A stretch of DNA of 62,855 nt, the filler included, from Nemertoderma westbladi (taxonomy: Eukaryota; Animalia; Xenacoelomorpha): the NCBI GenBank assembly GCA_032718475.1. It is 4 parts of 4 records of this genome, joined end to end, with 100 filler letters (N's around TTAATTAATTAA, not from the genome) between each part and the next. Parts side by side here need not be neighbours in the genome. Positions count along the whole stretch, not along the records: positions 1 to 18,055 come from JAUCBJ010008924.1; 3 more parts are not named here. One strand, 5' to 3'. Made by a program: the position numbers and the translations under genes. The notes under the pieces are model-generated. The model did no database searches and had not been told where the DNA came from. It saw only the letters and a list, made by a program, of their open reading frames with translations. Shown in pieces: positions 150 to 28,010 of this stretch (positions are counted from its first letter, which is position 1; every line of letters begins with the position of its first letter).

Positions 150-2076
150 TTTGTTGATGGAAATATTGCTCTTTGGATAATACGGATAAATCACCCAAAT
201 TCCCAATTTTCTTGATACACTACAGGTTAGAGAGACCGGTTATACATAACAATTGCGATTTATATTAATGTGGTGTGTATTGAATCCAATGTTATTTAGC
301 AGACCCTACGTGAGTCAATTACTGCTCTCTTTATGTGTGATCAAATATACTGACTGTCGGCAGAATAGTGTGTACGATCGTGAATGGTAACAAAGTATTT
401 CCTAAAGAATACGCTTTATACTTTAATCATAAGCAGTATCGTTGCGTTTTAGTATAAGTCTTAGTTCTGTTTAAATAGATAAAGCGCCACGTCCTAAAGG
501 AACTGTTAATATTTCCCGAAAGCCAATAATATCTGTCAGAGATTAATTATTAACGATCTATTGAATAATACAGTAGGTATACACTGCAACCTTACACTGC
601 AATAATAAAATTCAAGCATCCGAATTCAGTCTCCCGGGTGTAGATCCATCGGGTGAATGATCGCGCATGGGCTGGCTTCGGCTAATGTTTTGTTTATTAG
701 CATAAAATATTGTCGTATGCTAAAGGTGTTTTAATTAACTAAAAGACATATAAATTTTGGCAGGTTAAACTGCTAAAGGTCTTCAAAAGCGCGAACAAAG
801 GTGAAGGAGACCGCGTAGAGTCTTCCGGTAGTAGGCGTCTAGTTTATTGGTGTCTGTTCCTGTTAGTCTCCCTATGTCAAGTTTGAGTCGGTACAGCACA
901 ACTGGGACAGCCAGGGTTCTCCAGAGCATGAATACTACATCAGGATGCAGCCATTGTGTTGTCCAACCCTTAGTATGAAATATTTGAGAAAGTTGCGCCA
1001 GAATTTGTATGGAGTCTGTCAGTACACTGGAGTGTGGTGAGAGTTTATACCCCAAGAAAATCAAGTGATTGCTGCTCGGTATTAGAGATCCGTTAATGTT
1101 GATGAAGCATGGTAGGTGTGCTGAGCCCCGTCTCATCATGATCCATTTTGTTTTGGATAGTTCTAGTTTCAGGTCGACTTTCAACGCTTCAGCTTTGGTT
1201 ATGTCTGCCATGTTCTCAATGTCTTTAGGGGAGGTCGCTAGCAGAATGAAGTCATCAGCATATGCGAAAGTCCCCAACCAAATCGAGTCTACCCAGCGCC
1301 AGCACCCAAGCTGCGAGTTCTTTAGGGCTTTGATCATGTCCATGGTGTACAGGTTAAAGAGGGTCGGAGATAGTAGCGACCCCTGTTTAATTTCTTTGTG
1401 TACTAAGATTGGTGTACAGTCTATGTTCGAACCGAACTTGAGGAAAAATTTGCTTGAGAGGTAGTAGGACAGTATGGTGCTGACGATATGGGGATTCACG
1501 TACTCAAGGAGCTTCTTAGTCAGTAGTGCGTAGTCAACATCTTCAAACGCCGATTGTATGTCTATTTGGCAGGCGAACACAGGGGAACCGTTAGATAGGT
1601 GATACTCGATACACTCTAGGATTGTGCTGACGACGATGTCCGCGCCAATATTCTTCTTATAGGCAGTCTGGTATTCATGGGGTAGGACTGGATCCAGGAC
1701 GTGTACTAGGAGGATGTGTTCAGTATTTTTGCAAATATGTTAATCAATGCGATCGGACGATACGAAGTAGGTTTTAGTTTATCCTTGCCTTTGCCTTTAT
1801 AAATACTACTGAGGGCAGATTGGCCAAATATAGAGGGGACTGACTTCAGTTCGAAGCAGTTGTTGATGATGTTGGCTAGAATGTCACAAATGGACTCTGG
1901 TTCCAAGTGGAGTAGATGTTCAAGAGTGAGGGATGCAGCGTCTGGGGCTTTGCCAGTTGAGAGACTCAGAATAGCTTTCTTCACAGCCAGCGGAGATATT
2001 GTGGGAGTTTTCATATGTTTACATTTGTCTGCAAGCTCTTTCTGAATTTCTTCTATGCCGCTCTTATTCAGATCAC
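150..2076 (-). mobile_element. 5'-truncated, decayed non-LTR retrotransposon (LINE) with RT domain, downstream of Rh exon 7 (probably intronic)
   Basis: ORFs 1706-2014 and 783-1580 give GKAPD..., YRPIALINIFAKIL, KQGSLLSPTLFNLY and FAYADD, with a frameshift near 1706. Region 150-800 is homologous to 41001-41470 (reverse complement) and 58644-58890. Clade unresolved. Confidence 0.85.
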
Positions 2077-2221
2077 CTGAAAATTACAACTACATTACAA
2101 ACTACAAAAAACACGATTGATTCCCCACCACTATCTATCTACCCCTACCTGCTCCTGTTTAATTGGTTACCTGATTTCTTAACGGATCTCTCTACATTTT
2201 CTCACGTGGTTTCAGTTGAAT

Positions 2222-5200
2222 CTCATCTGGTTCCGTAATAACTTCCAGCTGCAACTCACCTGGTTCCGTAATAACTTTCTATCTGCAACTCACCTGGTTC
2301 CGTAATAACTTTCTATCTGCAACTCACCTGGTTCCGTAATAACTTTCTATCTGCAACTCACCTGGTTCCGTAATAACTTCCAGCTGCAACTCACCTGGTT
2401 CCGTAATAACTTTCAGCTACAACTCACCTGGTTCCGAAATAACTTCCAGCTACAACTCACCTGGTTCCATAATAACTTTCAGCTGCAACACACCTGGTTC
2501 CGTAATAACTTTCTATCTGCAACTCACCTGGTTCCGTAATAACTTCCAGCTGCAACTCACCTGGTTCCGTAATAACTTTCAGCTACAACTCACCTGGTTC
2601 CGAAATAACTTCCAGCTACAACTCACCTGGTTCCATAATAACTTTCAGCTGCAACACACCTGGTTCCGTAATAACTTTCTATCTGCAACTCACCTGGTTC
2701 CGTAATAACTTTCTATCTGCAACTCACCTGGTTCCGTAATAACTTTCAGCTGCAACTCACCTGGTTCCGTAATAACTTTCTATCTGCAACTCACCTGGTT
2801 CCATAATTACTTTCTATCTGAAACTCACCTGATTCCGTAATAACTTTCTATCTGCAACTCACCTGGTTCCGTAATAACTTTCTATCTGCAACTCACCTGG
2901 TTCGGTAATAACTTTCTATCTGCAACTCACCTGGTTCCATAATAACTTTCTATCTGCAACTCACCTGGTTCCGTAATAACTTTCTATCTGCAACTCACCT
3001 GGTTCCGTAATAACTTTCTATCTGCAACTCACCTGGTTCGGTAATAACTTTCTATCTGCAACTCACCTGGTTCCATAATTACTTTCTATCTGAAACTCAC
3101 CTGATTCCGTAATAACTTTCTATCTGCAACTCACCTGGTTCCATAATAACTTTCTATCTGCAACTCACCTGGTTCCGTAATAACTTTCAGCTGCAACTCA
3201 CCTGGTTCCGTAATAACTTTCTATCTGCAACTCACCTGGTTCCATAATTACTTTCTATCTGAAACTCACCTGATTCCGTAATAACTTTCTATCTGCAACT
3301 CACCTGGTTCCATAATTACTTTCTATCTGCAACTCACCTGGATCCGTAATAACTTTCTATCTGCAACTCACCTGGTTCCGTAATAACTTTCTATCTGCAA
3401 CTCACCTGGATCCGTAATAACTTTCTATCTGCAACTCACCTGGATCCGTAATAACTTTCTATCTGCAACTCACCTGGTTCCATAATTACTTTCTATCTGA
3501 AACTCACCTGATTCCGTAATAACTTTCTATCTGCAACTCACCTGGTTCCATAATAACTTTCTATCTGCAACTCACCTGGTTCCGTAATAACTTTCAGCTG
3601 CAACTCACCTGGTTCCGTAATAACTTTCTATCTGCAACTCACCTGGTTCCATAATTACTTTCTATCTGCAACTCACCTGGATCCGTAATAACTTTCTATC
3701 TGCAACTCACCTGGTTCCATAATTACTTTCTATCTGAAACTCACCTGATTCCGTAATAACTTTCTATCTGCAACTCACCTGGTTCCATAATTACTTTCTA
3801 TCTGCAACTCACCTGGATCCGTAATAACTTTCAGCTACAACTCACCTGGTTCCGAAATAACTTCCAGCTACAACTCACCTGGTTCCATAATAACTTCCAG
3901 CTACAACTCACCTGGTTCCATAATAACTTTCAGCTGCAACTCACCTGGTTCCGTAATAACTTTCTATCTGCAACTCACCTGGTTCCATAATTACTTTCTA
4001 TCTGCAACTCACCTGGTTCCGTAATAACTTTCTATCTGCAACTCACCTGGTTCCGTAATAACTTCCAGCTGCAACTCACCTGGTTCCGTAATAACTTTCA
4101 GCTACAACTCACCTGGTTCCGAAATAACTTCCAGCTACAACTCACCTGGTTCCATAATAACTTTCAGCTGCAACTCACCTGGTTCCGTAATAACTTTCTA
4201 TCTGCAACTCACCTGGTTCCATAATAACTTTCTATCTGCAACTCGCCTGGTTCCGTAATAACTTTCTATCTGCAACTCACCTGGTTCCGTAATAACTTTC
4301 TATCTGCAACTCACCTGGTTCCGTAATAACTTTCTATCTGCAACTCACCTGGTTCCATAATTACTTTCTATCTGAAACTCACCTGATTCCGTAATAACTT
4401 TCTATCTGCAACTCACCTGGTTCCGTAATAACTTTCTATCTGCAACTCACCTGGATCCGTAATAACTTTCTATCTGCAACTCACCTGGTTCCATAATTAC
4501 TTTCTATCTGAAACTCACCTGGTTCCGTAATAACTTTCTATCTGCAACTCACCTGGATCCGTAATAACTTTCTATCTGCAACTCACCTGGTTCGGTAATA
4601 ACTTTCTATCTGCAACTCACCTGGTTCCATAATTACTTTCTATCTGAAACTCACCTGATTCCGTAATAACTTTCTATCTGCAACTCACCTGGTTCCGTAA
4701 TAACTTTCTATCTGCAACTCACCTGGATCCGTAATAACTTTCTATCTGCAACTCACCTGGTTCCATAATAACTTTCTATCTGCAACTCACCTGGATCCGT
4801 AATAACTTTCTATCTGCAACTCACCTGGTTCGGTAATAACTTTCTATCTGCAACTCACCTGGATCCGTAATAACTTTCTATCTGCAACTCACCTGGTTCC
4901 ATAATAACTTTATATCTGCAACTCACCTGGATCCGTAATAACTTTCTATCTGCAACTCACCTGGTTCGGTAATAACTTTCTATCTGCAACTCACCTGGTT
5001 CCATAATTACTTTCTATCTGAAACTCACCTGATTCCGTAATAACTTTCTATCTGCAACTCACCTGGTTCCATAATTACTTTCTATCTGAAACTCACCTGA
5101 TTCCGTAATAACTTTCTATCTACAACTCACCTGGTTCCATAATAACTTTCTATCTGCAACTCACCTGGTTCCGTAATAACTTTCTATCTGCAACTCACCT

Positions 5201-8200
5201 GGATCCGTAATAACTTTCTATCTGCAACTCACCTGGTTCCATAATAACTTTCTATCTGCAACTCACCTGGATCCGTAATAACTTTCTATCTGCAACTCAC
5301 CTGGTTCGGTAATAACTTTCTATCTGCAACTCACCTGGATCCGTAATAACTTTCTATCTGCAACTCACCTGGTTCCATAATAACTTTCTATCTGCAACTC
5401 ACCTGGATCCGTAATAACTTTCTATCTGCAACTCACCTGGTTCCATAATTACTTTCTATCTGAAACTCACCTGATTCCGTAATAACTTTCTATCTGCAAC
5501 TCACCTGGTTCCATAATAACTTTCTATCTGCAACTCACCTGGATCCGTAATAACTTTCTATCTGCAACTCACCTGGTTCCGTAATAACTTTCAGCTACAA
5601 CTCACCTGGTTCCGAAATAACTTCCAGCTACAACTCACCTGGTTCCATAATAACTTTCTATCTGCAACTCACCTGGTTCGGTAATAACTTTCTATCTGCA
5701 ACTCACCTGGTTCCATAATTACTTTCTATCTGAAACTCACCTGATTCCGTAATAACTTTCTATCTGCAACTCACCTGGTTCCGTAATAACTTTCTATCTG
5801 CAACTCACCTGGATCCGTAATAACTTTCTATCTGCAACTCACCTGGTTCCATAATAACTTTCTATCTGCAACTCACCTGGTTCCGTAATAACTTTCTATC
5901 TGCAACTCACCTGGTTCCGTAATAACTTTCTATCTGCAACTCACCTGGTTCCGTAATAACTTTCTATCTGCAACTCACCTGGTTCCGTAATAACTTTCTA
6001 TCTGCAACTCACCTGGTTCGGTAATAACTTTCTATCTGCAACTCACCTGGTTCCATAATAACTTTCTATCTACAACTCACCTGGTTCCGTAATAACTTTC
6101 AGCTGCAACTCACCTGGTTCCGTAATAACTTTCTATCTACAACTCACCTGGTTCCGTAATAACTTTCAGCTGCAACTCACCTGGTTCCGTAATAACTTTA
6201 TATCTGCAACTCACCTGGTTCCGTAATAGCTTTCTATCTGCAACTCACCTGGTTCCGTAATAACTTTCTATCTGCAACTCACCTGGTTCCGTAATAGCTT
6301 TCTATCTGCAACTCACCTGGTTCCGTAATAACTTTCTATCTACAACTCACCTGGTTCCGTAATAACTTTCAGCTGCAACTCACCTGGTTCCGTAATAACT
6401 TTCTATCTTCAACTCACCTGGTTCCGTAATAACTTTCAGCTGCAACTCACTTGGTTCCGTAATAACTTTCTATCTACAACTCACCTGGTTCCGTAATAAC
6501 TTTCAGCTGCAACTCACCTGGTTCCGTAATAACTTTATATCTGCAACTCACCTGGTTCCGTAATAGCTTTCTATCTGCAACTCACCTGGTTCCGTAATAA
6601 CTTTCTATCTACAACTCACCTGGTTCCGTAATAACTTTCAGCTGCAACTCACCTGGTTCCGTAATAACTTTATATCTGCAACTCACCTGGTTCCGTAATA
6701 GCTTTCTATCTGCAACTCACCTGGTTCCGTAATAGCTTTCTATCTGCAACTCACCTGGTTCCGTAATAACTTTCAGCTGCAACTCACCTGGTTCCGTAAT
6801 AACTTTATATCTGCAACTCACCTGGTTCCGTAATAGCTTTCTATCTGCAACTCACCTGGTTCCGTAATAACTTTCTATCTGCAACTCACCTGGTTCCGTA
6901 ATAACTTCCAGCTGCAACTCACCTGGTTCCGTAATAACTTTCAGCTACAACTCACCTGGTTCCGAAATAACTTCCAGCTACAACTCACCTGGTTCCATAA
7001 TAACTTTCAGCTGCAACACACCTGGTTCCGTAATAACTTTCTATCTGCAACTCACCTGGTTCCGTAATAACTTCCAGCTGCAACTCACCTGGTTCCGTAA
7101 TAACTTTCAGCTACAACTCACCTGGTTCCGAAATAACTTCCAGCTACAACTCACCTGGTTCCATAATAACTTTCAGCTGCAACACACCTGGTTCCGTAAT
7201 AACTTTCTATCTGCAACTCACCTGGTTCCGTAATAACTTTCTATCTGCAACTCACCTGGTTCCGTAATAACTTTCTATCTGCAACTCACCTGGTTCCGTA
7301 ATAACTTTCTATCTGCAACTCACCTGGTTCCGTAATAACTTCCAGCTGCAACTCACCTGGTTCCGTAATAACTTTCAGCTACAACTCACCTGGTTCCGAA
7401 ATAACTTCCAGCTACAACTCACCTGGTTCCATAATAACTTTCAGCTGCAACACACCTGGTTCCGTAATAACTTTCTATCTGCAACTCACCTGGTTCCGTA
7501 ATAACTTCCAGCTGCAACTCACCTGGTTCCGTAATAACTTTCAGCTACAACTCACCTGGTTCCGAAATAACTTCCAGCTACAACTCACCTGGTTCCATAA
7601 TAACTTTCAGCTGCAACACACCTGGTTCCGTAATAACTTTCTATCTGCAACTCACCTGGTTCCGTAATAACTTTCTATCTGCAACTCACCTGGTTCCGTA
7701 ATAACTTTCAGCTGCAACTCACCTGGTTCCGTAATAACTTTCTATCTGCAACTCACCTGGTTCCATAATTACTTTCTATCTGAAACTCACCTGATTCCGT
7801 AATAACTTTCTATCTGCAACTCACCTGGTTCCGTAATAACTTTCTATCTGCAACTCACCTGGTTCGGTAATAACTTTCTATCTGCAACTCACCTGGTTCC
7901 ATAATAACTTTCTATCTGCAACTCACCTGGTTCCGTAATAACTTTCTATCTGCAACTCACCTGGTTCCGTAATAACTTTCTATCTGCAACTCACCTGGTT
8001 CGGTAATAACTTTCTATCTGCAACTCACCTGGTTCCATAATTACTTTCTATCTGAAACTCACCTGATTCCGTAATAACTTTCTATCTGCAACTCACCTGG
8101 TTCCATAATAACTTTCTATCTGCAACTCACCTGGTTCCGTAATAACTTTCAGCTGCAACTCTCCTGGTTCCGTAATAACTTTCTATCTGCAACTCACCTG

Positions 8201-11200
8201 GTTCCATAATTACTTTCTATCTGAAACTCACCTGATTCCGTAATAACTTTCTATCTGCAACTCACCTGGTTCCGTAATAACTTTCTATCTGCAACTCACC
8301 TGGTTCGGTAATAACTTTCTATCTGCAACTCACCTGGTTCCATAATTACTTTCTATCTGAAACTCACCTGATTCCGTAATAACTTTCTATCTGCAACTCA
8401 CCTGGTTCCGTAATAACTTTCTATCTGCAACTCACCTGGATCCGTAATAACTTTCTATCTGCAACTCACCTGGTTCCATAATAACTTTCTATCTGCAACT
8501 CACCTGGTTCCGTAATAACTTTCTATCTGCAACTCACCTGGTTCCGTAATAACTTTCTATCTGCAACTCACCTGGTTCCGTAATAACTTTCTATCTGCAA
8601 CTCACCTGGTTCCGTAATAACTTTCTATCTGCAACTCACCTGGTTCGGTAATAACTTTCTATCTGCAACTCACCTGGTTCCATAATAACTTTCTATCTAC
8701 AACTCACCTGGTTCCGTAATAACTTTCAGCTGCAACTCACCTGGTTCCGTAATAACTTTCTATCTACAACTCACCTGGTTCCGTAATAACTTTCAGCTGC
8801 AACTCACCTGGTTCCGTAATAACTTTATATCTGCAACTCACCTGGTTCCGTAATAGCTTTCTATCTGCAACTCACCTGGTTCCGTAATAACTTTCTATCT
8901 GCAACTCACCTGGTTCCGTAATAGCTTTCTATCTGCAACTCACCTGGTTCCGTAATAACTTTCTATCTACAACTCACCTGGTTCCGTAATAACTTTCAGC
9001 TGCAACTCACCTGGTTCCGTAATAACTTTCTATCTTCAACTCACCTGGTTCCGTAATAACTTTCAGCTGCAACTCACTTGGTTCCGTAATAACTTTCTAT
9101 CTACAACTCACCTGGTTCCGTAATAACTTTCAGCTGCAACTCACCTGGTTCCGTAATAACTTTATATCTGCAACTCACCTGGTTCCGTAATAGCTTTCTA
9201 TCTGCAACTCACCTGGTTCCGTAATAACTTTCTATCTACAACTCACCTGGTTCCGTAATAACTTTCAGCTGCAACTCACCTGGTTCCGTAATAACTTTAT
9301 ATCTGCAACTCACCTGGTTCCGTAATAGCTTTCTATCTGCAACTCACCTGGTTCCGTAATAGCTTTCTATCTGCAACTCACCTGGTTCCGTAATAACTTT
9401 CAGCTGCAACTCACCTGGTTCCGTAATAACTTTATATCTGCAACTCACCTGGTTCCGTAATAGCTTTCTATCTGCAACTCACCTGGTTCCGTAATAACTT
9501 TCTATCTGCAACTCACCTGGTTCCGTAATAACTTTCTATCTGCAACTCACCTGGTTCCGTAATAACTTTCTATCTGCAACTCACCTGGTTCCGTAATAGC
9601 TTTCTATCTGCAACTCACCTGGTTCCGTAATAACTTTCTATCTGCAACTCACCTGGTTCCGTAATAACTTTCTATCTGCAACTCGCCTGGTTCCGTAATA
9701 ACTTTCTATCTGCAACTCACCTGGTTCCGTAATAACTTTCTATCTGCAACTCACCTGGTTCCGTAATAACTTTCTATCTGCAACTCACCTGGTTCCGTAA
9801 TAACTTTCTATCTACAACTCACCTGGTTCCGTAATAACTTTCTATCTGCAACTCACCTGGTTCCGTAATAACTTTCTATCTGCAACTCACCTGGTTCCAT
9901 AATAACTTTCTATCTGCAACTCACCTGGTTCCGTAATAACTTTCTATCTGCAACTCACCTGGTTCCATAATAACTTTCTATCTGCAACTCACCTGGTTCC
10001 ATAATAACTTTCTATCTGCAACTCACCTGGTTCCATAATAACTTTCTATCTACAACTCACCTGGTTCCATAATAACTTTCTATCTGCAACTCACCTGGTT
10101 CCGTAATAACTATCTATCTGCAACTCACCTGGTTCCGTAATAGCTTTCTATCTGTAACTCACCTGGTTCCGTAATAACTTTCTATCTGCAACTCACCTGG
10201 TTCCGTAATAACTTTCTATCTGCAACTCACCTGGTTCCATAATAACTTTCTATCTGCAACTCACCTGGTTCCATAATAACTTTCTATCTGCAACTCACCT
10301 GGTTCCATAATAACTTTCTATCTACAACTCACCTGGTTCCGTAATAACTTTCTATCTGCAACTCACCTGGTTCCATAATAACTTTCTATCTGCAACTCAC
10401 CTGGTTCCGTAATAACTTTCTATCTACAACTCACCTGGTTCCGTAATAACTTTCTATCTGCAACTCACCTGGTTCCATAATAACTTTCTATCTGCAACTC
10501 ACCTGGTTCCATAATAACTTTCTATCTGCAACTCACCTGGTTCCATAATAACTTTCTATCTGCAACTCACCTGGTTCCATAATAACTTTCTATCTGCAAC
10601 TCACCTGGTTCCATAATAACTTTCTATCTGCAACTCACCTGGTTCCATAATAACTTTCTATCTGCAACTCACCTGGTTCCGTAACAACTTTCTATCTGCA
10701 ACTCACCTGGTTCCATAATAACTTTCTATCTGCAACTCACCTGGTTCCGTAACAACTTTCTATCTGCAACTCACCTGGTTCCATAATAACTTTCTATCTG
10801 CAACTCACCTGGTTCCGTAACAACTTTCTATCTGCAACTCACCTGGTTCCATAATAACTTTCTATCTGCAACTCACCTGGTTCCGTAACAACTTTCTATC
10901 TGCAACTCACCTGGTTCCATAATAACTTTCTATCTACAACTCACCTGGTTCCGTAATAACTTTCTATCTGCAACTCACCTGGTTCCATAATAACTTTCTA
11001 TCTGCAACTCACCTGGTTCCGTAACAACTTTCTATCTGCAACTCACCTGGTTCCATAATAACTTTCTATCTACAACTCACCTGGTTCGGTAATAACTTTC
11101 TATCTGCAACTCACCTGGATCCGTAATAACTTTCTATCTGCAACTCACCTGGTTCCGTAACAACTTTCTATCTGCAACTCACCTGGTTCCATAATAACTT

Positions 11201-11995
11201 TCTATCTGCAACTCACCTGGTTCCGTAACAACTTTCTATCTGCAACTCACCTGGTTCCATAATAACTTTCTATCTGCAACTCACCTGGTTCCGTAACAAC
11301 TTTCTATCTGCAACTCACCTGGTTCCATAATAACTTTCTATCTACAACTCACCTGGTTCCATAATAACTTTCTATCTGCAACTCACCTGGTTCCATAATA
11401 ACTTTCTATCTGCAACTCACCTGGTTCCGTAACAACTTTCTATCTGCAACTCACCTGGTTCCATAATAACTTTCTATCTACAACTCACCTGGTTCCATAA
11501 TAACTTTCTATCTGCAACTCACCTGGTTCCATAATAACTTTCTATCTGCAACTCACCTGGTTCCATAATAACTTTCTATCTACAACTCACCTGGTTCCAT
11601 AATAACTTTCTATCTACAACTCACCTGGTTCCATAATAACTTTCTATCTGCAACTCACCTGGTTCCATAATAACTTTCTATCTGCAACTCACCTGGTTCC
11701 ATAATAACTTTCTATCTGCAACTCACCTGGTTCCGTAACAACTTTCTATCTGCAACTCACCTGGTTCCATAATAACTTTCTATCTACAACTCACCTGGTT
11801 CCATAATAACTTTCTATCTGCAACTCACCTGGTTCCATAATAACTTTCTATCTGCAACTCACCTGGTTCCGTAATAACTTTCTATCTGCAACTCACCTGG
11901 TGGCGTAATAACTTTCTATCTGCAACTCACCTGGTTCCGTAATAACTTTCTATCTGCAACTCACCTGGTTCCGTAATAACTTTCAGCTGCAACTC
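2222..11995. repeat. ~9.8-kb satellite, 33/34-bp unit CTCACCTGGTTCCGTAATAACTTTCTATCTGCAA (~290 copies), derived from the Rh exon 7/intron junction
   Basis: Direct tandem periodicity. The minus-strand unit GTGAGTTGCAGATAGAAAGTTATTACGGAACCAG matches the last ~30 nt of exon 7 plus its donor. Confidence 0.97.
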
Positions 11996-12098
11996 CGGTG
12001 GCAATAATTCCCGCTATACCCGACATAATTCCCGGCATTCCATGGAGATTGTTGACGCCGCAAGTATCGTGAATCTTCAGTTTAGAAGCTAAAAATGG
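11965..12098 (-). CDS. Rh50: Rh-family ammonium transporter, exon 7
   Basis: ctccag|[44 protein letters not shown], ends AG|gtgagt (phase 2); contains the DxCG..NLHG.PG Rh motif. Downstream exons not found in the window. Confidence 0.92.
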
Positions 12099-12736: not shown

Positions 12737-12874
12737 AGTTACGTATTGGAAACCGATAACAGATAAGGCGCCAGACAACATTCCTATTAGTAGAGAGGCC
12801 CATGGGTCAATGAGAATATCAGCTACGGTGCCAACAGCAACACCGCCCGCTAACGTTGCGTTCTGTATGTGAAC
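12737..12874 (-). CDS. Rh50: Rh-family ammonium transporter, exon 6
   Basis: tttag|[46 protein letters not shown]|gtaagt; 138 bp, phase 0/0. Confidence 0.93.
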
Positions 12875-13289: not shown

Positions 13290-13598
13290 CATGTTAAACT
13301 TTTTCTTTTTGCTTAAGGAGATGGATAGAGCGAACGCGACCACACAACAGGCGCTAAGAGAGAAGTATGTGTTAATGACAGCGCGTTGTTGGGCAGAGCC
13401 AACAGCCAGAGCCGAGTTGAAACTGGGCCAAAACATCCACAGGAACAGCGTTCCTATCATAGAGAAGAGATCCGAGTGGTAGACGGAACCCTCTGCGTCG
13501 CACGTGTGGTGCTCCTGGCGGTCGATTACTCGGGACACGGCTAGTCCGAAGTAAGCGCCGAACGCGTGGACAAACATCGAACTACCGGCATCCACGGC
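13290..13598 (-). CDS. Rh50: Rh-family ammonium transporter, exon 5
   Basis: ttacag|[19 protein letters not shown]...[22 protein letters not shown]...KFNM|gttagt; hallmark Rh motifs. Confidence 0.95.
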
Positions 13599-13877: not shown

Positions 13878-14028
13878 TCCGAGTAAAGTAGCTCCAATAT
13901 AGGCATTAACATTGTATGCGATAAGTTCCATTGAAGCCATTACTAGAAGTTGGAGAGGGGTAGTCTTCCCTAGAACAGCGCCAAAGGATATGAGAACAGC
14001 TGCGGCAGCAAAGTCAGCATTTAGCATA
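13878..14028 (-). CDS. Rh50: Rh-family ammonium transporter, exon 4
   Basis: ttcag|(N)MLNADFAAAAVLISFGAVLGKTTPLQLLVMASMEL...LLG|gtaagt; 151 bp, phases consistent with neighbouring exons. Confidence 0.93.
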
Positions 14029-14420: not shown

Positions 14421-14610
14421 TTCTCTAAACCAATATAGATGGTGTTTTTATTTTCTCTAAGATGAATGAATCCCTCCATGAGCGTGGAGAACTGTAGCAC
14501 GTAGGCCGCCAGTAGGAAGTTGAAACCGATGCTTCCGTAACCGTAGCGTTTCAGAAACGTCATGAGGAAACCAAAACCCACAAATATCATCACATGGGTA
14601 TCTTGGAACA
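14421..14610 (-). CDS. Rh50: Rh-family ammonium transporter, exon 3
   Basis: ttcag|(M)[32 protein letters not shown]...IGLE AA|gttagt. Confidence 0.95.
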
Positions 14611-14837
14611 CTGAAATGTAAATAAGTGGTATATCTTAATACAGTAAAATAATATTACAACCAGATGCCATTGTAATAATGAAATAATTATATTAACAAG
14701 GTGTTGTTAGGCTATATTGTCTTGCATACTTATCTTGAATGAGATGGGTACTGTTTCACCGTGTACTGTAGTGTGCAAATTTAGGAATCACGAAACATTA
14801 TAATTAAATTCATAATAATATCTCTCCAAACCACGTA

Positions 14838-14934
14838 CTCGTATCGACCTTAACGGGTCTCATTGCAGCTTGGTGACGGATTCGAACCTGGGACCTCGAG
14901 GTGGAAGCCGAGACAACAACCTCTACGCCACATG
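14838..14934 (-). mobile_element. tRNA-derived SINE head (Pol III A and B boxes) in an Rh intron
   Basis: Minus-strand TGGCGTAGAGG (A box, 14930-14920) and GGTTCGAATCC (B box, 14888-14878); no acceptor stem, so not a tRNA gene. Confidence 0.6.
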
Positions 14935-15296
14935 TTCTTGAGATATGAAATATGAATTTCAAAGCGAGCTGCCGTTTTTTTTCTTCTTAATCATTGTAAA
15001 AAGGTGTTGGCAAACTGTATTTTCTAGCTGTTTATATATAATGTAATAAATATTGCGGAAAAGTAAATTACAGTGCAACCCAAACATTTTAAATTTTTGA
15101 ATAACTCATAAAAAATAAAATTGTTTATAAAAAAAAAATAAATAAAAAAATTAATGCAGTATAACTTTAATAAAGATTTGTGTAATGGAACCCTCTAACC
15201 CTCAGGTACTATTACTTTAATAGGACTGTAAAGTTCTTGTGGTGGTCGACCGGAACACGAATATTAAACGAAATATAGGCCTACTATAATACTTAC

Positions 15297-15345
15297 TTGG
15301 GTAATAACGGGTGATGGGGTCAGTGTTCGTAGATACTTTATCTAC
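15297..15345 (-). CDS. Rh50: Rh-family ammonium transporter, exon 2
   Basis: ttcag|VDKVSTNTDPITRYYP A|gtaagt; joins exon 3 to rebuild the conserved RYYPMFQD. Confidence 0.88.
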
Positions 15346-15809: not shown

Positions 15810-15950
15810 CTCTGTGGTGGTATTTTTTTGATCTTGTGGAGTAGGGGAGGCATCTTCGTTGAACCTCACAAAAATACCAAAGAGAAGAAGAAACAACAGC
15901 TGAATGGAAATCGCAAATGTTGCGAATCGCGACAAGGGAAATTTCATCAT
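15810..15950 (-). CDS. Rh50: Rh-family ammonium transporter, exon 1
   Basis: MMKFPLSRFATFAISIQLLFLLLFGIFVRFNEDA...TTE|gtaagt; first TM helix typical of Rh proteins. Confidence 0.88.
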
Positions 15951-16245
15951 AATTGTAATTTATAACTTATTATAATATTATATATTCCCAATAAATTAAT
16001 GTAATTAATTCCTAGTGCTATATCTATAGAGGAATGGAATTTTTTAGCGGACTCGAATTTGAGAATTAAAAGAGATTGACAGTGTGATGTATATTGAAAA
16101 AGAGTTTGTCGAAAATTTTATATATTACTTTGCGACAACAGATCGCTTAAATAAAACTTCATGGAATACGGAATAACCGAATGATATATCGCCGATTCGA
16201 CTCATGTTTCGTTATTTGTTATTGTTATCGTTTAGTTTTGAGCTT

Positions 16246-18055: not shown

Positions 18056-18155
18056 NNNNNNNNNNNNNNNNNNNNNNNNNNNNNNNNNNNNNNNNNNNNT
18101 TAATTAATTAANNNNNNNNNNNNNNNNNNNNNNNNNNNNNNNNNNNNNNNNNNNN
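18056..18155. other. Assembly/contig spacer
   Basis: 44 N + TTAATTAATTAA (stops in all frames) + 44 N. Confidence 0.95.
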
Positions 18156-18468: not shown

Positions 18469-19747
18469 TGGTCTGTGTTTTGTACCTGGGGGGGTCTGTG
18501 TTTTGTACCTGGGGGGGTCTGTGTTTTGTACCTGAGGGCGGGTCTGTGTTTTGTACCTGGGGGGGTCTGTGTTTTGTACCTGGGGGGGTCTGTGTTTTGT
18601 ACCTGGGGGGGGGGTCTGTGTTTTGTACCTGGGGGGGTCTGTGTTTTGTACCTGGGGGGGTCTGTGTTTTGTACCTGGGGGGGTCTGTGTTTTGTACCTG
18701 GGGGGGGGGGGTCTGTGTTTTGTACCTGGGGGGGTCTGTGTTTTGTACCTGGGGGGGTCTGTGTTTTGTACCTGGGGGGGTCTGTGTTTTGTACCTGGGG
18801 GGGGGGTCTGTGTTTTGTACCTGGGGGGGTCTGTGTTTTGTACCTGGGGGGGTCTGTGTTTTGTACCTGGGGGGGTCTGTGTTTTGTACCTGGGGGGGTC
18901 TGTGTTTTGTACCTGGGGGGGTCTGTGTTTTGTACCTGAGGGTCTTGGGTCTGTGTTTTGTACCTGAGGGTCTTGGGTCTGTGTTTTGTACCTGAGGGTC
19001 TTGGGTCTGTGTTTTGTACCTGAGGGTCTTGGGTCTGTGTTTTGTACCTGAGGGTCTTGGGTCTGTGTTTTGTACCTGAGGGTCTTGGGTCTGTGTTTTG
19101 TACCTGAGGGTCTTGGGTCTGTGTTTTGTACCTGAGGGTCTTGGGTCTGTGTTTTGTACCTGAGGGTCTTGGGTCTGTGTTTTGTACCTGAGGGTCTTGG
19201 GTCTGTGTTTTGTACCTGAGGGTCTTGGGTCTGTGTTTTGTACCTGAGGGTCTTGGGTCTGTGTTTTGTACCTGAGGGTCTTGGGTCTGTGTTTTGTACC
19301 TGAGGGTCTTGGGTCTGTGTTTTGTACCTGAGGGTCTTGGGTCTGTGTTTTGTACCTGAGGGTCTTGGGTCTGTGTTTTGTACCTGAGGGTCTTGGGTCT
19401 GTGTTTTGTACCTGAGGGTCTTGGGTCTGTGTTTTGTACCTGAGGGTCTTGGGTCTGTGTTTTGTACCTGAGGGTCTTGGGTCTGTGTTTTGTACCTGAG
19501 GGTCTTGGGTCTGTGTTTTGTACCTGAGGGTCTTGGGTCTGTGTTTTGTACCTGAGGGTCTTGGGTCTGTGTTTTGTACCTGAGGGTCTTGGGTCTGTGT
19601 TTTGTACCTGAGGGTCTTGGGTCTGTGTTTTGTACCTGAGGGTCTTGGGTCTGTGTTTTGTACCTGAGGGTCTTGGGTCTGTGTTTTGTACCTGAGGGTC
19701 TTGGGTCTGTGTTTTGTACCTGAGGGTCTTGGGTCTGTGTTTTGTAC
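18469..19747. repeat. Two-phase G-rich minisatellite (~23-bp unit with variable G run, then a perfect 28-bp unit)
   Basis: GTCTGTGTTTTGTACCT(G)n to ~18935, then GTCTGTGTTTTGTACCTGAGGGTCTTGG x~29. Confidence 0.95.
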
Positions 19748-21025: not shown

Positions 21026-21136
21026 ATGGATGCAGAGATACCTCCTAAAGGTCCTATGGGGGCGTTGAGCTCCGATGTGGATTGGTGTGAACCGAATTAT
21101 CAGATCTTCTCAACTGTTGCCGAATTTTATAATACG
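21026..21136 (+). CDS. ACER: Alkaline ceramidase (ACER1/2-like), exon 1
   Basis: MDAEIPPKGPMGALSSDVDWCEPNYQIFSTVAEFYNT|gtacgt; DWCExNY and EFYNT motifs. Confidence 0.92.
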
Positions 21137-21497
21137 GTACGTTCATTTGTAGGTACCGCTACACGGTGACGGTACCGGTAGTTTTCGTATCGGTAAACGG
21201 ACGTATCCTAAATTCTGCGCGGCGGATTAAGTTCATTATTCAGTTGCTGACGCTCAGTTATTAGGTATTGTTGATGTAGGGTCTGTTTCAGTATTACATT
21301 CTACCGGCAGACCGGTAACAGATACAGTACCGGTATTATTCTATTTCTGGATATACTGATATCAGGATATAGTTCAATGTAGTTGACTACAAACACCAGA
21401 CAACCTCTTGTTAAATTCTTAGGTCTCGGGAATAGACTGAACGATTTTTGTGTATTACAGATTTTTATTGTACTTTGTAACGCTTTGTTTGTTACAG

Positions 21498-21649
21498 GTT
21501 AGCAATGCTTTGTTTATTCTCCTCCCGTTATTATTGATATATCTATTGGTTCCCTACGTTAAGCGAGCAGCCGACCCCACTTCCATTATAATGTGCTCCT
21601 TGTTACTCACCGTCGGGGTTGGGTCTATTTACTTCCATGCGACTTTAAG
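21498..21649 (+). CDS. ACER: Alkaline ceramidase, exon 2
   Basis: ttacag|VSNALFILLP...GVGSIYFHATL AG|gttagt; CREST SxxxH motif. Confidence 0.93.
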
Positions 21650-21682
21650 GTTAGTCAACTAATATAGGTGTATAAGTAAAAA

Positions 21683-22162
21683 GGATACATGACCGAACGT
21701 AATCAGGATCGAATGTAACATAGTTCAGTAGGCCTAGTTATTACGTATCGAACGTAACCGCAATTATGTTACATTTGATCTCATAACTATGTTACATTCG
21801 ATCTACAAATTACTAAGCCCGAATGTAACATTAACATTTAAAGGGGCAGGTTGCAGAGGTGTGTTGGGGGAACCAAAACAGTAAACGAAAGTTAACATAT
21901 GTTACATGATTATGCAAGTTACTTAATTGGGTCTTTGTTTTGTACTCACCAAACTGTTTCTTCCTGTAAATAAACGAAGCATTTCATCGGTTAACTCCTG
22001 AAATCAAAACACATCAGAAATAAATATATGTTACATTCGGGCTTAGTAATTTGTAGATCGAATGTAACATAGATATAGGATCCAATGTAACATAATTGAG
22101 GTTACGTTCGATTCGTAAAAACTATGTTACATTCGATCCTGATTACGTTCGGCCTGTCACCC
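21683..22162. mobile_element. Mutator-like MITE in ACER intron 2
   Basis: ~140-bp imperfect terminal inverted repeats (CCGAACGTAATCAGGATCGAATGTAACATAG...) and a 9-bp TSD AAGTAAAAA (21674-21682 / 22163-22171). Confidence 0.8.
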
Positions 22163-22720
22163 AAGTAAAAATACAACAGTTTGTTTTTGTTAGTATCATA
22201 TTGACCCTAATTATAATTCCAACTGTCGAATAATTGTAGGGGAATCCCTAAAATAATTTGAAGTGAAGTCGTATCTATATTTTATTTCGCATGGCGAGTT
22301 TTACCCTGGATTAGTTGTAAATTTCGCCCGACTTTTCTTTTTTTATGAATACGAGATTATATTCTGACATTTTATCATTTTTGTAGTTTCCATAGATAAG
22401 TTTGTGGATGTTAACAGGCCTGGCCTACCTCTGGAGTCCGGAGTTCTCCGTACTGGCAGATCTACAATATTTAACAAATTGGTTTAAAACCACGAATATT
22501 TATCACTAGTTTACCGGCCAACTTGTATATTTACCATATTTATGTAAATAATATAAATAATCATATATAATTAAGATAAAAATTTGAACTCCTTAATGAA
22601 AAAATGGTAAAAAATACTATTTAATAATAAATTATTAAATATCATTTAATAATATATTACGTAGCGGCACCGGACCCTTTTGTTGACCATTTTTAATATT
22701 ATGAATTTATTGTATTACAG

Positions 22721-22825
22721 CTTGGCTGGGCAACTCTTGGATGAGCTGAGTATACTTTGGGTTATAATGTTGGGTATATCGATGTGGACACCTAAAAGGT
22801 TCATCCCAGAGTCCCTCTATTATAA
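22721..22825 (+). CDS. ACER: Alkaline ceramidase, exon 3
   Basis: ttacag|(S)[36 protein letters not shown]|gtaagt; QLLDEL motif. Confidence 0.93.
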
Positions 22826-23400
22826 GTAAGTTCTAGAGCTATTTAGTTCTTATGTAGAACTTATATTAATTGTGATTGACATATTTACTGTTAATAATGT
22901 ATCTCATAATATTATAGGCCATCCCGGATGGGTGTAAGTAAAGTTGTGTAAACCCGATTTCCGGGATCCCACCGGGAATGCAATTTTGAATTCCACTTTA
23001 ATTAACTAATATATATTAAATGTCTGTCTATGTTTGTTAAATATTATGTGGCGGTGTAAATATGAAACAGTTTTTTTGGCAACTTTTTATAACTTTATTT
23101 TACACCGCTGAAATATTATTTAGGATATATTTAATATTTATATTAAAATTTATTTATTTATATAATTACTAGGATATCTTAGGATATTAATTCGATATAA
23201 TCAATACATTTCTGTTTTCTTGCAACTATTCATATGATATTCACCAAATTTACTTCACTAAATTTAGACTTCGGGATCCTGTTTTTAAAAAGTCGGATAG
23301 GGATTACATTTTTCGCCGGAATCCCTATTTTTCGGGATCGGGATCCCATTTAAGCACTCAGTGTGCACTTATTTAATAATTAATTGATATTACATTGCAG

Positions 23401-23538
23401 TAATGGTTGGAAGAAGGTTATGTTTAGCGCCACTGTGTTACTAACTGTTGCCTCTTTCTACCTACCCAAACTCAACAACATCGCTCTTCAGTTTTTTACT
23501 TTCCCTTTGGTCACCATCTTGATCGCCTATCTAAAACG
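23401..23538 (+). CDS. ACER: Alkaline ceramidase, exon 4
   Basis: ttgcag|(N)NGWKKVMFSATVLLTVASFYLPKLNNIALQFFTFPLVTILIAYLK CG|gtaagt; phases consistent. Confidence 0.88.
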
Positions 23539-23650
23539 GTAAGTTATATTAAGTGTTTTATGCGCTTATTTCTATATAACCTGTATAGATACTAATTTGT
23601 TTATTGTTTTGGTTAAATTCAGCCCTTCTGTAACCTGTGTTTTTGGTGAA

Positions 23651-23938
23651 AACCTGGTATTCTTCACATGGGGGTAACTGCAAAGTGAAATATAACGGCA
23701 GAAAGTCTGGTATTCTTCATATGGGGGTAACTGCAAAGTGAAATATAACGGCAAAAAGTCTGGTATTCTTCACATGGGGGGTAACTGCAAAGTGAAATAT
23801 AACGGTAGAAAGTCTGGTATTCTTCATATGGGGGTAACTGCAAAGTGAAATATAACGGCAGAAAGTCTGGTATTCTTCATATGGGGGGTAACTGCAAAGT
23901 GAAATATAACGGCAGAAAGTCTGGTATTCTTCACATGG
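23651..23938. repeat. ~54-bp tandem repeat, ~5.5 copies
   Basis: CTGGTATTCTTCA(C/T)ATGGGGGTAACTGCAAAGTGAAATATAACGGCAGAAAGT units. Confidence 0.9.
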
Positions 23939-25334
23939 GCCGGGGAGGGGGGGGGGGGGGGGGGGGGGGGGTTCCGTTCCATTAAGCAATCCGTCGGACT
24001 TGAATTCCGAATATTTGAACGCTATTAACTGAAATATTGACTATTAAGTTATCACTCCTGACTGTCCGACATATATTCAATCAGATATATTTTAGACCTG
24101 TCGTATTCGCCCAAATACGGCAGTATAACTCTGGGTTCAGAGAACGTGTACATATTGACAGGCGGCAATCCCCTGATACAGTACCAAGCATGTGTTTGAT
24201 ATAAATATTAGATTTCTACTTCCATACAATTCTCATTGATTCCGCATGTCAATGTTATAATTAAAACAGTCAATTTGATATATTCTTCCGATTCCATAGG
24301 CGGCTTACACACCAACTCCCACCCTACAGCCCTATTTATCCCAATTCATCAATTTTTGTCACAGGTGTGGTCTGAGGATACTACATTATACAAAATGAGT
24401 TTTCCATCCTGATAACTCTGTTTAATTTGACAATGTTTATAATAATAACTTCACCTCTATCCATATACCATAAGCATCAAACAGTCTTGCAATGTAATAA
24501 ATCTGCCCAATAACTCATTGAACCGGAAGGACGCCCCGGGCTGACAACATAAATCAAAGCTAGAGTAAACATTATCTCTCCTTCATCTAGACTTATGTCT
24601 TCAATATACTACCCAGAGACAGTCAGTCCCAGGCTATACAAAATTAGTTACCTCGGACCCAGCAGCTGCTACAGAGTATTACATAACACAAATCCATTTA
24701 CTATAACATTGCCTTTCTTTCCATTTCTTTGTCACATTTTCTCAGTTACCCCACCCCCCCCCCCCCCCCCCCCCCCACACCCCACCCCACCCCTAAGCAG
24801 TATCATCAAACCACCTGAATTATTGCAGGAGTTAAAAGTATCACATTGTCCTAATCCAAATCAACTTGAGATACAAAGAGCAGCGTTGATTTATTTATTT
24901 TTCAGATAAATTGCCAACACTTTCTTCTTTATGCTCATATTAAGTATACCGTAAAAAACTCTTAACCCAGTGGCTCCCTACTGTAAGAAATTTACATACG
25001 CCAAATATCAATATGTGCGCCGCCTCGTCGGATTCCGAGTGGCCCACACCCGCTCAGGTGTGCCCTCTGCGGATCTTCCGTAGTAAACCAATTTGGTCAG
25101 GTCAAATCCAAACATTCAATGGAGATCACCAAATGGGGCGCTATGTGAAGTACCGTGCAGACACGATGATGATATATTTTAGATAACACAATTACACCGG
25201 TAGGCATGATATTACAGAGTACTACAGTACAACGGTACAGCAGTAGACTTTTCTGCACTTACGGTCCGGACAGATTACCAGTAGAAACAGTCATTACTAG
25301 TGATCCTAACATTAACGACTCGGTCAATCCTGTG

Positions 25335-27558
25335 GAGTGAGTGAGTGAGTGAGTGAGTGAGTGAGTGAGTGAGTGAGTGAGTGAGTGAGTGAGTGAGTGA
25401 GTGAGTGAGTGAGTGAGTGAGTGAGTGAGTGAGTGAGTGAGTGAGTGAGTGAGTGAGTGAGTGAGTGAGTGAGTGAGTGAGTGAGTGAGTGAGTGAGTGA
25501 GTGAGTGAGTGAGTGAGTGAGTGAGTGAGTGAGTGAGTGAGTGAGTGAGTGAGTGAGTGAGTGAGTGAGTGAGTGAGTGAGTGAGTGAGTGAGTGAGTGA
25601 GTGAGTGAGTGAGTGAGTGAGTGAGTGAGTGAGTGAGTGAGTGAGTGAGTGAGTGAGTGACTGAGTGAGTGAGTGACTGACTGAGTGAGTGACTGACTGA
25701 GTGAATGAGTGACTGAGTGAGTGAGTGACTGAGTGACTGAGTGAGTGAGTGACTGAGTGAGTGAGTGAGTGAGTGAGTGAGTGAGTGAGTGAGTGAGTGA
25801 GTGAGTGAGTGAGTGAGTGAGTGAGTGAGTGAGTGACTGAGTGAGTGACTGAGTGAGTGACTGAGTGAGTGACTGAGTGAGTGACTGAGTGAGTGACTGA
25901 GTGAGTGACTGAGTGAGTGACTGAGTGAGTGAGTGACTGAGTGAGTGAGTGACTGAGTGAGTGAGTGACTGAGTGAGTGAGTGACTGAGTGAGTGAGTGA
26001 CTGAGTGAGTGAGTGACTGAGTGAGTGAGTGACTGAGTGAGTGAGTGACTGAGTGAGTGAGTGACTGAGTGACTGAGTGAGTGAGTGAGTGAGTGAGTGA
26101 GTGAGTGACTGAGTGAGTGACTGAGTGAGTGACTGAGTGAGTGACTGAGTGAGTGACTGAGTGAGTGAGTGACTGAGTGAGTGAGTGACTGAGTGACTGA
26201 GTGAGTGACTGAGTGAGTGAGTGACTGAGTGAGTGAGTGACTGAGTGAGTGAGTGACTGAGTGAGTGAGTGACTGAGTGAGTGAGTGACTGAGTGAGTGA
26301 GTGACTGAGTGAGTGAGTGACTGAGTGAGTGAGTGACTGAGTGAGTGAGTGACTGAGTGAGTGAGTGACTGAGTGAGTGAGTGACTGAGTGAGTGAGTGA
26401 CTGAGTGAGTGAGTGACTGAGTGAGTGAGTGACTGAGTGAGTGAGTGAGTGACTGAGTGAGTGAGTGAGTGAGTGACTGAGTGAGTGAGTGAGTGAGTGA
26501 CTGAGTGAGTGAGTGACTGAGTGAGTGAGTGACTGAGTGAGTGAGTGAGTGAGTGACTGAGTGAGTGAGTGACTGAGTGAGTGAGTGACTGAGTGAGTGA
26601 CTGAGTGAGTGAGTGACTGAGTGAGTGAGTGACTGAGTGACTGAGTGAGTGAGTGACTGAGTGAGTGAGTGAGTGAGTGACTGAGTGAGTGAGTGACTGA
26701 GTGAGTGAGTGACTGAGTGAGTGAGTGACTGAGTGAGTGAGTGAGTGAGTGACTGAGTGAGTGAGTGAGTGACTGAGTGAGTGAGTGACTGAGTGAGTGA
26801 GTGACTGAGTGAGTGAGTGAGTGAGTGAGTGAGTGAGTGAGTGAGTGAGTGAGTGAGTGACTGAGTGAGTGAGTGACTGACTGAGTGAGTGACTGACTGA
26901 GTGAGTGAGTGAATGAGTGACTGAGTGAGTGAGTGACTGAGTGAGTGAGTGACTGAGTGAGTGAGTGACTGAGTGAGTGAGTGACTGAGTGAGTGAGTGA
27001 CTGAGTGAGTGAGTGACTGAGTGAGTGAGTGACTGAGTGAGTGACTGAGTGAGTGAGTGACTGAGTGAGTGAGTGACTGAGTGAGTGAGTGACTGAGTGA
27101 GTGAGTGACTGAGTGAGTGAGTGACTGAGTGAGTGAGTGACTGAGTGAGTGAGTGACTGAGTGAGTGAGTGAGTGAGTGACTGAGTGAGTGAGTGACTGA
27201 GTGAGTGACTGAGTGAGTGACTGAGTGAGTGACTGAGTGAGTGACTGAGTGAGTGACTGAGTGAGTGACTGAGTGAGTGACTGAGTGAGTGACTGAGTGA
27301 GTGAGTGACTGAGTGACTGAGTGACTGAGTGAGTGAGTGAGTGACTGAGTGAGTGAGTGAGTGAGTGACTGAGTGAGTGAGTGACTGAGTGAGTGAGTGA
27401 CTGAGTGAGTGAGTGACTGAGTGAGTGAGTGACTGAGTGAGTGAGTGACTGAGTGAGTGAGTGACTGAGTGAGTGAGTGAGTGTGTGAGTGAGTGTGTGT
27501 GTGTGTGTGTGTGTGAGTGAGTGAGTGAGTGAGTGAGTGAGTGAGTGAGTGATTGAGT
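25335..27558. repeat. 2.2-kb (GAGT)n microsatellite with GACT interruptions in ACER intron 4
   Basis: Direct inspection. Confidence 0.97.
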
Positions 27559-27676
27559 GGGTGATTAGAGTACGCCTCGCGCATGTCCCTCGTGCTGGAC
27601 GCGTTCTTTATGTTTTATGATAAATAGTTAACGCGTTTCTTTGATAAACTCTACGTGGCTATATTTATCTTTACAG

Positions 27677-28010
27677 GAGCGCTAGTTCTCGGCTTACGTG
27701 GATGCTATTGGTCAGTCTCGTACTGGGTATATGCGCGCTGGGTTTCTGGATCTCGGATAGGTTCTTCTGCACCCTGTGGGTGCGACTGCTGGGGTTCTCC
27801 TGGGGTCACGTCATCTGGCATCTCCTTATGGGCGTCACCAGCGCGCTCTTTATCGGTCTCTTCTCCTTCATTCACGCCTCCGACGAGAAGAGGCATCTAG
27901 ACCCCGTACTCAAACTGTGGCCCTGCGATACCTGGTGCGTAGGTCTTCCATACGTCGCCATAACAACCTGGTTGCCCCCTAGTAAGGAGCCTAGACATCG
28001 AAGTGTCTAA
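27677..28010 (+). CDS. ACER: Alkaline ceramidase, exon 5 (terminal); total CDS 840 bp, 279 aa
   Basis: ttacag|(R)SASSRLTW...FWISDRFFC...GHVIWHLL...LWP...GLPYV...TAA; HxxWH zinc-ligand motif. Confidence 0.93.

What the first reader, a model, noticed from the sequence alone, without database searches (positions are those of the whole stretch)
2222..11995. ~9.8-kb satellite made of ~290 copies of the Rh exon 7 / 5' splice-site junction
Seen: Rh exon 7 ends ...GGAGTTGCAGCTGAAAGTTATTACGGAACCAG|GTGAGT, and the satellite starts at that donor. Each 33/34-bp unit on the sense strand is GTGAGTTGCAG(ATA/CT)GAAAGTTATTACGGAACCAG, so almost every junction recreates a consensus CAG|GTGAGT donor preceded by the real exon end. 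The GAGT overlap between exon and donor explains a slippage origin. Any downstream donor would add AGG-TGA, an immediate in-frame stop before the last TM helix. Inference: the pre-mRNA carries hundreds of strong U1 sites and AG|GT junctions. These could act as poison donors tuning Rh output via NMD, a U1 sponge, or recursive-splicing steps; the array could also be a neutral expansion that splicing must ignore.
Basis: partly seen in the sequence, partly recalled or inferred. Interest (0 to 1): 0.8.

Follow-up and report, generated by a model that had tools for sequence, protein, structure and literature searches.

The report
Splice-donor minisatellite in Rh intron 7
In an animal's Rh ammonium-transporter gene, the end of exon 7 with its splice signal is repeated about 290 times into the next intron, yet the one assembled transcript seen uses the first signal, so this is likely a large but tolerated example of a repeat type already known from lancelet and human genes.

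Summary
An array of 288 full 33/34-bp units (window 11964 to 2227, minus strand) copies the end of Rh exon 7 plus its donor; 277 of 289 junctions read CAG|GTGAGT. A second individual shares the start and the decayed far end, so it is no assembly artefact. One run that behaves as RNA gives an unbroken spliced contig that leaves exon 7 at the first donor and continues in frame into Rh exon 8; no contig of that run lies on the first unit. The poison-donor and recursive-splicing ideas gain no support; rare NMD-cleared use is not excluded. The arrangement is known: human F7, CBS, 6-16, LMNB2, PDGF and lancelet 'mirages'; ABCA7 alleles reach similar size. One loose end: by copy number the donor 9-mer is the least variable part of the unit (P 0.008-0.07 by test; distinct alleles P 0.31). 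The scan found this arrangement before on other DNA, often in this genome (unchecked notes). Verdict: new member of a known kind.

The parts
15810..16015 (-). Rh exon 1 (holds the start codon)
   Evidence: spliced contig of run X4; GT..AG and open frame
15297..15345 (-). Rh exon 2 (49 nt)
14421..14610 (-). Rh exon 3
13878..14028 (-). Rh exon 4
13290..13598 (-). Rh exon 5
   Evidence: PF00909 E 4e-24
12737..12874 (-). Rh exon 6
11965..12098 (-). Rh exon 7 (134 nt, ends in phase 2); its last 31 nt (11995-11965) are the coding copy of the repeat unit
11959..11967 (-). first (authentic) donor CAG|GTGAGT, the one used in the transcript contig
   Evidence: X4 contig ends at 11965 and goes on into exon 8
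2227..11964 (-). array of 288 full units (234 x 34 bp, 54 x 33 bp; 30 variants; block duplications, the longest 36 units at a spacing of 78)
2206..2226 (-). decayed 21-nt terminal unit starting ATGAGA (dead donor; 13 of 17 matches to the 33-bp unit)
   Evidence: same letters in X2/X3
2200..2208 (-). remnant junction CAC|GTGAGA, likely the ancestral donor (inferred)
   Evidence: X3 contig 2184-2262 with 0 differences
2103..2199 (-). short unique intron tail; in X2/X3 it runs on into a T-rich tract ending in CAG (likely the exon-8 acceptor), which is not in the window
   Evidence: loose ends
780..2085 (-). frameshifted reverse-transcriptase retroelement piece next to the tail in this haplotype; X2/X3 alleles lack it at this place
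   Evidence: PF00078 E 9.3e-19

Best explanation
This is a tandem repeat of the Rh exon-7 end plus its splice donor, likely born by one 33-bp duplication at a short GAG(T) overlap and likely tolerated because the spliceosome takes the first donor, as the one assembled transcript does. Shown: the anatomy, the exon identity, the shared ends in a second individual, the first-donor junction, and the stop after any later donor. Inferred: (1) slippage or unequal exchange between the exon's GAG and the donor's GTGAG made two copies, placing a consensus CAG|GTGAGT first and the old donor last; (2) repeated unequal exchange with block duplication grew the array and homogenised its inside while the far edge decayed; (3) exon definition and 5'-to-3' first-site choice, as shown for human F7, keep the later donors silent; (4) rare use of a later donor would give a stop before the last helix and would likely be cleared by NMD, so the cost is low.
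For: X4 contig (1,792 nt, depth 284) has six GT..AG joints, covers exon 7 as exactly 134 nt and leaves at 11965. Its next letters read S-F-N-D-L-F-P-N-R-E, in register with the family's S-L-Y-E-I-F-P-A-R. X4 depth in bin 11930-12069 is 213 = 284 x 105/140, so nothing lies on the first unit. Exons 1-7 join into an open frame. The unit's residues match the family (Ala in 91, Tyr in 77, Gly in 76 of 94 homologs), so the unit came from the exon. Variants fall on codon positions 1/2 (13 alleles in 16 columns) as freely as on position 3 (3 in 8), so the units are not coding. The decayed edge matches what is described for lancelet mirages (PMC3087553). First-site use is shown for F7 (PMC1557585).
Against: Only one RNA-like run, kept as contigs that drop rare variants, and NMD would hide poison products. 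That X4's animal carries the array is inferred: its exons differ from the window at 1 of 1,131 listed letters, and the more distant X2/X3 carry the array. In CBS and 6-16, two pseudo-sites are used beside the first, and in ABCA7 a one-unit retention is seen. Donor positions are quieter than strict neutrality predicts by copy number. The F7 rule was shown in mammalian cells with about five pseudo-sites.
Confidence: 0.77

Rival explanations
1. The mRNA is still made from the first donor, but the donor motif itself drives or preserves the array. U1 bound to the nascent units would either bias the copying that expands them or help transcription through the long intron (telescripting; recalled, not from a call). 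Donor-damaged units then fail to spread.
For: The donor 9-mer carries 11 of 337 unit-changes and is the quietest 9-nt window (2 of 34 windows tie). Position permutation P 0.008 and allele-frequency test P 0.029; allele-dropping P 0.025-0.048 with base matching and without CpG. None of the 13 alleles seen in 8 or more units hits the donor (P 0.018). Unchecked scan notes list many unrelated donor-seeded arrays in the same genome.
Against: Distinct alleles are not depleted (4 of 21, P 0.31); other thresholds give P 0.03-0.30. A neutral block-duplication simulation gives P 0.07 (1,089 of 6,000 runs kept). The array has no AATAAA or ATTAAA to suppress. The scan notes are chosen for looking odd and are not independent.
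Confidence: 0.13
2. The later donors act as regulated poison sites: some transcripts use them, gain AGG-TGA and are degraded, which tunes Rh output.
For: The stop is real and 276 later junctions are perfect donors. Pseudo-site use is reported for CBS, 6-16 and ABCA7. One unchecked note reports use of an inner copy at another locus of this genome.
Against: No X4 contig on unit 1 or on the last unit other than the mRNA itself. Two or three donors would serve; 288 add nothing obvious. In ABCA7 the one-unit retention did not scale with array length.
Confidence: 0.06
3. The AG|GT junctions are recursive splice sites that remove the intron in steps.
For: Every unit ends in AG directly before GT.
Against: The 20 nt before each AG are 30-40% pyrimidine, while the gene's six real acceptors have T-rich tracts. 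Units of 33-34 nt leave little room for a branch point (inferred).
Confidence: 0.02
4. The array is an assembly artefact, or a dispersed satellite unrelated to this exon.
For: No genome is held, so dispersal is untested, and no read spans the array, so its length is unconfirmed.
Against: Both ends and many unit contigs are in a second individual about 1-2% divergent. The 30 variants come in ordered blocks and only 4 alleles are singletons. The unit encodes conserved Rh residues, and no copy lies elsewhere in the window.
Confidence: 0.02

Closest known systems
Human F7 intron 7 37-bp VNTR (Borensztajn et al. 2006, PMC1557585; seen: abstract, introduction, first results section, discussion), with the 6-16, CBS intron 13, LAMIN B2 and PDGF intron 4 arrays as cited in its introduction
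   Same: The first monomer spans the exon-intron boundary, the donor is reiterated in the intron, and the most upstream donor is used.
   Different: 5-25 copies there, 288 here. The F7 unit is mostly intronic (4 exon + 33 intron bases); this one is mostly exonic, with a near-consensus donor. CBS and 6-16 also use two pseudo-sites.
Lancelet 'mirage' minisatellites (Adh3, globins BflGb6 and BflGb9, troponin C, PGBD5; PMC3087553 and PMC3902484, seen: passages)
   Same: Tandem copies of an exon-intron boundary in an invertebrate, normal mRNA, homogenised inside with the edge units left out; the generating mechanism is called unclear.
   Different: The globin cases have 3-6 units of about 150-160 bp. 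This array is about fifty times larger in copy number and would fill about 98% of its intron in the second individual's alleles if their array is as long.
Human ABCA7 intron 18 25-bp VNTR (De Roeck et al. 2018, PMC5954066; seen: passages)
   Same: Starts at the donor, reaches 10,678 bp (about 427 units), and a second-donor use gives a premature stop.
   Different: Its unit begins at the GT and is not described as holding exon sequence. Its length effect is on skipping of the next exon, which could not be tested here.
Rh / ammonium transporter family PF00909 (host gene)
   Same: Exons 5 and 7 match PF00909 above its cut-off; about 70% identity over exon 5 to invertebrate Rh proteins.
   Different: No close relative among the 120 hits listed; exon 8 onward lies outside the window.

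Membership tests
Junction-spanning minisatellite ('mirage', F7 IVS7 type) | tandem repeat whose first monomer spans an exon-intron boundary | tested here: met
   array 11995-2222 overlaps exon 7 (ends 11965) by 31 nt
Junction-spanning minisatellite ('mirage', F7 IVS7 type) | the splice-site sequence is reiterated in the intron | tested here: met
   277 of 289 junctions CAG|GTGAGT
Junction-spanning minisatellite ('mirage', F7 IVS7 type) | regular mRNA is made from the authentic, most upstream site | tested here: met
   one RNA-like run, contig level; minor forms not excluded
Junction-spanning minisatellite ('mirage', F7 IVS7 type) | concerted evolution inside, edge units excluded | tested here: met
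   93% matches inside; terminal unit 13 of 17 with a deletion
Junction-spanning minisatellite ('mirage', F7 IVS7 type) | copy number varies between alleles | not testable with these tools
   short-read contigs break in the array and depth is no copy number
Regulated AS-NMD (poison donor) | the alternative donor brings a premature stop | tested here: met
   YYGT-R-stop
Regulated AS-NMD (poison donor) | the alternative donor is actually used | tested here: inconclusive
   not seen in X4, but contigs drop rare and NMD-cleared forms
Regulated AS-NMD (poison donor) | use is regulated and rises when NMD is blocked | not testable with these tools
   needs an experiment
Recursive splice sites | AG|GT with a pyrimidine tract before the AG (feature recalled) | tested here: not met
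   30-40% pyrimidine before all five AGs of the unit
Recursive splice sites | saw-tooth nascent RNA, exon-to-site junction reads | not testable with these tools
   no raw RNA reads were listed
Dispersed satellite family | the unit occurs at other loci | not testable with these tools
   no genome held; no copy elsewhere in the window

The most novel reading that the evidence does not exclude
In this animal lineage the 5' splice site is itself the seed and the preserved core of giant intronic satellites. A U1- or splicing-coupled process amplifies exon-end-plus-donor units to hundreds or thousands of copies in many unrelated genes and favours units with an intact donor, while first-site choice keeps the mRNAs normal. 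That would link the spliceosome to satellite birth and give a natural test bed for donor choice among hundreds of identical sites.
Probability: 0.14. Interest if true: 0.75.

Novelty: new member of a known kind. Interest (0 to 1): 0.3.

Why it matters
Taken alone the locus is an extreme natural test of 5' splice-site choice: the first of 277 identical strong donors wins in the one transcript seen, which would extend a rule shown for about five sites in mammalian cells to an invertebrate and to fifty times the copy number. It does not point to a new control device for Rh. The larger question is why this genome seems to make such arrays again and again, and whether the donor motif is preserved in them. 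The origin of mirages is called unclear in print, and a pooled test over this genome's arrays would address it.

Tried and rejected
Whole genome: none is held, so neither dispersal of the unit nor the genome-wide count of such arrays could be tested. Run search: no RNA holder listed; X4, listed as 'DNA?', proved to be spliced, and no raw RNA reads were on offer. X1 has no contig on 2099-2212, which proves nothing. Exon 8 in the window: not found by tblastn with 110 C-terminal pieces of homologs, by the X4 loose end or by the acceptor motif. Copy number from depth: rejected; X2 and X3 are one sample yet give ratios of about 42 and 216 at 11951. Coding use of units or filtering by the exon's reading frame: rejected. 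Ongoing exchange between exon end and array: the 31 of 31 identity fits it, but so does a recent re-expansion; not resolved. Other arrays of the window as donor copies: 10 checked; none starts at one of the four exon ends that I checked in the neighbouring gene, and one holds CAG|GTACAA in 48 places with no exon identified. Paper searches with no hit. One search gave one paper and six, seen as listings only. PMC10078293 and PMC2630376 (passages) added only the CBS repeat's range of 16-21 units. No supplements were read. I did not find the genome-wide pattern in print in these seven searches; the library lacks most subscription papers.

Full report
Observation. Tandem Repeats Finder gives one array at 2222-11995, period 34, 289.1 copies, 93% matches. 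Read on the minus strand it holds 288 full units after the exon's own copy: 234 of 34 bp and 54 of 33 bp, in 30 variants. Of the 289 junctions from 11964 to 2226, 277 read CAG|GTGAGT. Four have lost the GT: two GC, one GA, and the last, AT. The variants come in ordered blocks, for example a run of 36 units repeated exactly 78 units later, and only 4 alleles occur once, which is what a well-resolved real array looks like.

Host gene. Exons 5 and 7 match PF00909 above its cut-off. Exon 5 has about 70% identity to invertebrate Rh proteins at best (120 of 2,228 hits listed). Homologs map five exons. Seven exons from 16015 to 11965 join over six GT..AG introns into one open frame. The repeated stretch encodes family-typical residues (Ala in 91, Tyr in 77, Gly in 76 of the 94 homologs with the anchor motif), so the unit came from the exon and not the reverse. 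Reading through the first donor gives YYGT-R-stop, ahead of the hydrophobic C-terminal helix that the homologs carry. Exon 8 is not in the window. The window appears to be several contigs joined by N linkers at 18056, 40901 and 58544; no whole genome is held.

Which donor is used. The run search listed six runs, four holding the stretch, none on record as RNA; I laid those four. X4 behaves as RNA: one 1,792-nt contig at depth 284 skips six introns, each GT..AG on the gene's strand. It covers exon 7 as record positions 1044-1177, exactly 134 nt, ends at 11965 and goes on for 255 letters or more that are not in the window. Read by hand on the gene's strand, the junction gives S-F-N-D-L-F-P-N-R-E, in register with the family's S-L-Y-E-I-F-P-A-R. 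X4 depth in the first bin equals this contig alone, so nothing lies on unit 1; at the far end only the same contig matches the last unit. The first donor is therefore the dominant one. Limits: one run, contigs drop rare forms, NMD would thin poison products, and X4's animal is only inferred to carry the array (1 difference in 1,131 listed exon letters, and the window's letter at all 10 listed exonic sites where X2 differs).

A second individual. X2 and X3 (one sample) differ from the window by about 1-2% in unique DNA. They have unit contigs at high depth, a unique contig that stops at 11966, and contigs that run from the last unit into the tail with the same decayed end (X3 2184-2262, 0 differences). 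Beyond 2103 in one allele and 2149 in the other, their sequence leaves the window and, read on the gene's strand, is a T-rich tract ending in CAG, in one allele followed by C, the first base of exon 8 in X4. This is likely the exon-8 acceptor. It is absent from the window, where a frameshifted reverse-transcriptase element lies at about 780-2085 instead. If their array is as long, it fills 98.5-98.9% of intron 7. The retroelement is then likely a polymorphic insertion just ahead of the acceptor; a contig misjoin is not excluded.

Origin. After the last full unit come a dead donor (CAG|ATGAGA), a 21-nt unit that matches the 33-bp unit at 13 of its first 17 letters and lacks about 12, and then CAC|GTGAGA at 2205. 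I infer that this is the ancestral donor. A 33-bp duplication between the exon's GAG and the donor's GAG would put a new CAG|GTGAGT first, with its sixth base taken from the exon, and leave the old donor last and free to decay. Unequal exchange then grew the array, the 34-bp type took over, and the edge was left out of homogenisation, as described for lancelet mirages (PMC3087553, passages).

Is the donor conserved? After merging two compound changes there are 21 derived alleles. Four fall in the nine donor columns (5.6 expected, P 0.31). By copy number the donor columns carry 11 of 337 changes and form the quietest of 34 circular windows, tied with one neighbour; position permutation P 0.008, allele frequencies P 0.029, frequency thresholds P 0.018-0.30. 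Dropping alleles at random gives P 0.025-0.048 with base matching and without CpG; a neutral block-duplication simulation gives P 0.07 (1,089 of 6,000 runs kept for similar allele number and load). So donor mutations arise at the usual rate but have not spread far. This is a hint from one array, not a result. Coding constraint does not explain it.

The proposed functions. Recursive splicing: the 20 nt before each of the unit's five AGs are 30-40% pyrimidine, unlike the gene's real acceptors. Poison donors: the stop is real, use is not seen. U1 sponge or telescripting (recalled concepts): not testable here; the array has no AATAAA or ATTAAA.

What is known. PMC1557585 (abstract, introduction, first results section, discussion) describes the human F7 intron 7 VNTR, whose first unit spans the exon-intron boundary. 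Its pseudo-sites work but do not compete, the most upstream site is used, and knocking it out moves splicing to the next. It cites 6-16 (25 pseudo-sites) and CBS (15-20 units), where two pseudo-sites are also used, and LAMIN B2 and PDGF, where only the first is. Lancelet mirages are the invertebrate counterpart; they do not disturb the mRNA and their origin is called unclear (passages). ABCA7 alleles reach 10,678 bp and about 427 units starting at a donor (passages), so the size here has a precedent. The locus meets four of the five features of the family; length polymorphism could not be tested.

Earlier scan notes. They gave me the word 'mirage' and its paper, which I checked. They list the same arrangement in other genomes and often in this one: 53 of 79 notes fit the words 'splice donor satellite', and those shown include PRP8, GALNS, lysyl-tRNA synthetase and CstF-77, several far larger. 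I could not test these, and a word match is not a count of arrays. No note matched this sequence.

Verdict. The open point is whether the donor motif helps such arrays spread or persist in this lineage (0.13-0.14). Interest 0.3.

Noticed in passing
window 780-2085 (minus strand): A frameshifted reverse-transcriptase element (PF00078) lies between the array tail and where the exon-8 acceptor sits in the second individual's alleles: likely a polymorphic insertion about 30 nt ahead of the acceptor. X4 has a contig identical to 1700-1959.
   Followed up: partly
window 2103-2148: The second individual has two alleles of the tail; one leaves the window's sequence at 2149, the other at 2103, so one likely lacks about 46 bp.
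   Followed up: partly
window 18056-18155, 40901-41000, 58544-58643: Three linkers of 44 N, a 12-base all-frame stop motif and 44 N: the window looks like several joined contigs, so neighbours across them are not linked.
   Followed up: yes
window 25335-27564 (+): A 2.2-kb (GAGT)n array with 321 GTGAGT hexamers ends about 110 bp before the acceptor of the last exon of a gene at about 21027-28000 that resembles an alkaline ceramidase (name recalled, not searched).
   Followed up: partly
window 18470-19747 (-): A 28-bp array with CAG|GTACAA in 48 places, whose first copy lacks the CAG; it could be another donor-like array, but no exon was identified.
   Followed up: partly
window 30547-33964: A 3.4-kb GC-rich array of mixed 42/92/134-bp periods with long open frames; no donor-like motif found.
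   Followed up: no
window 62130-62579 (+): An open frame with a small-GTPase (Rab-like) look, by recalled motifs only.
   Followed up: no
window about 42000-58000: Long frames that look like LTR-retrotransposon protease, integrase and gag pieces (recalled likeness, not searched), and a 733-residue frame at 36678-38876.
   Followed up: no
window 14730-15009: A very high-copy short element in Rh intron 2 (summed contig depth 10^4-10^5 in the DNA runs).
   Followed up: no
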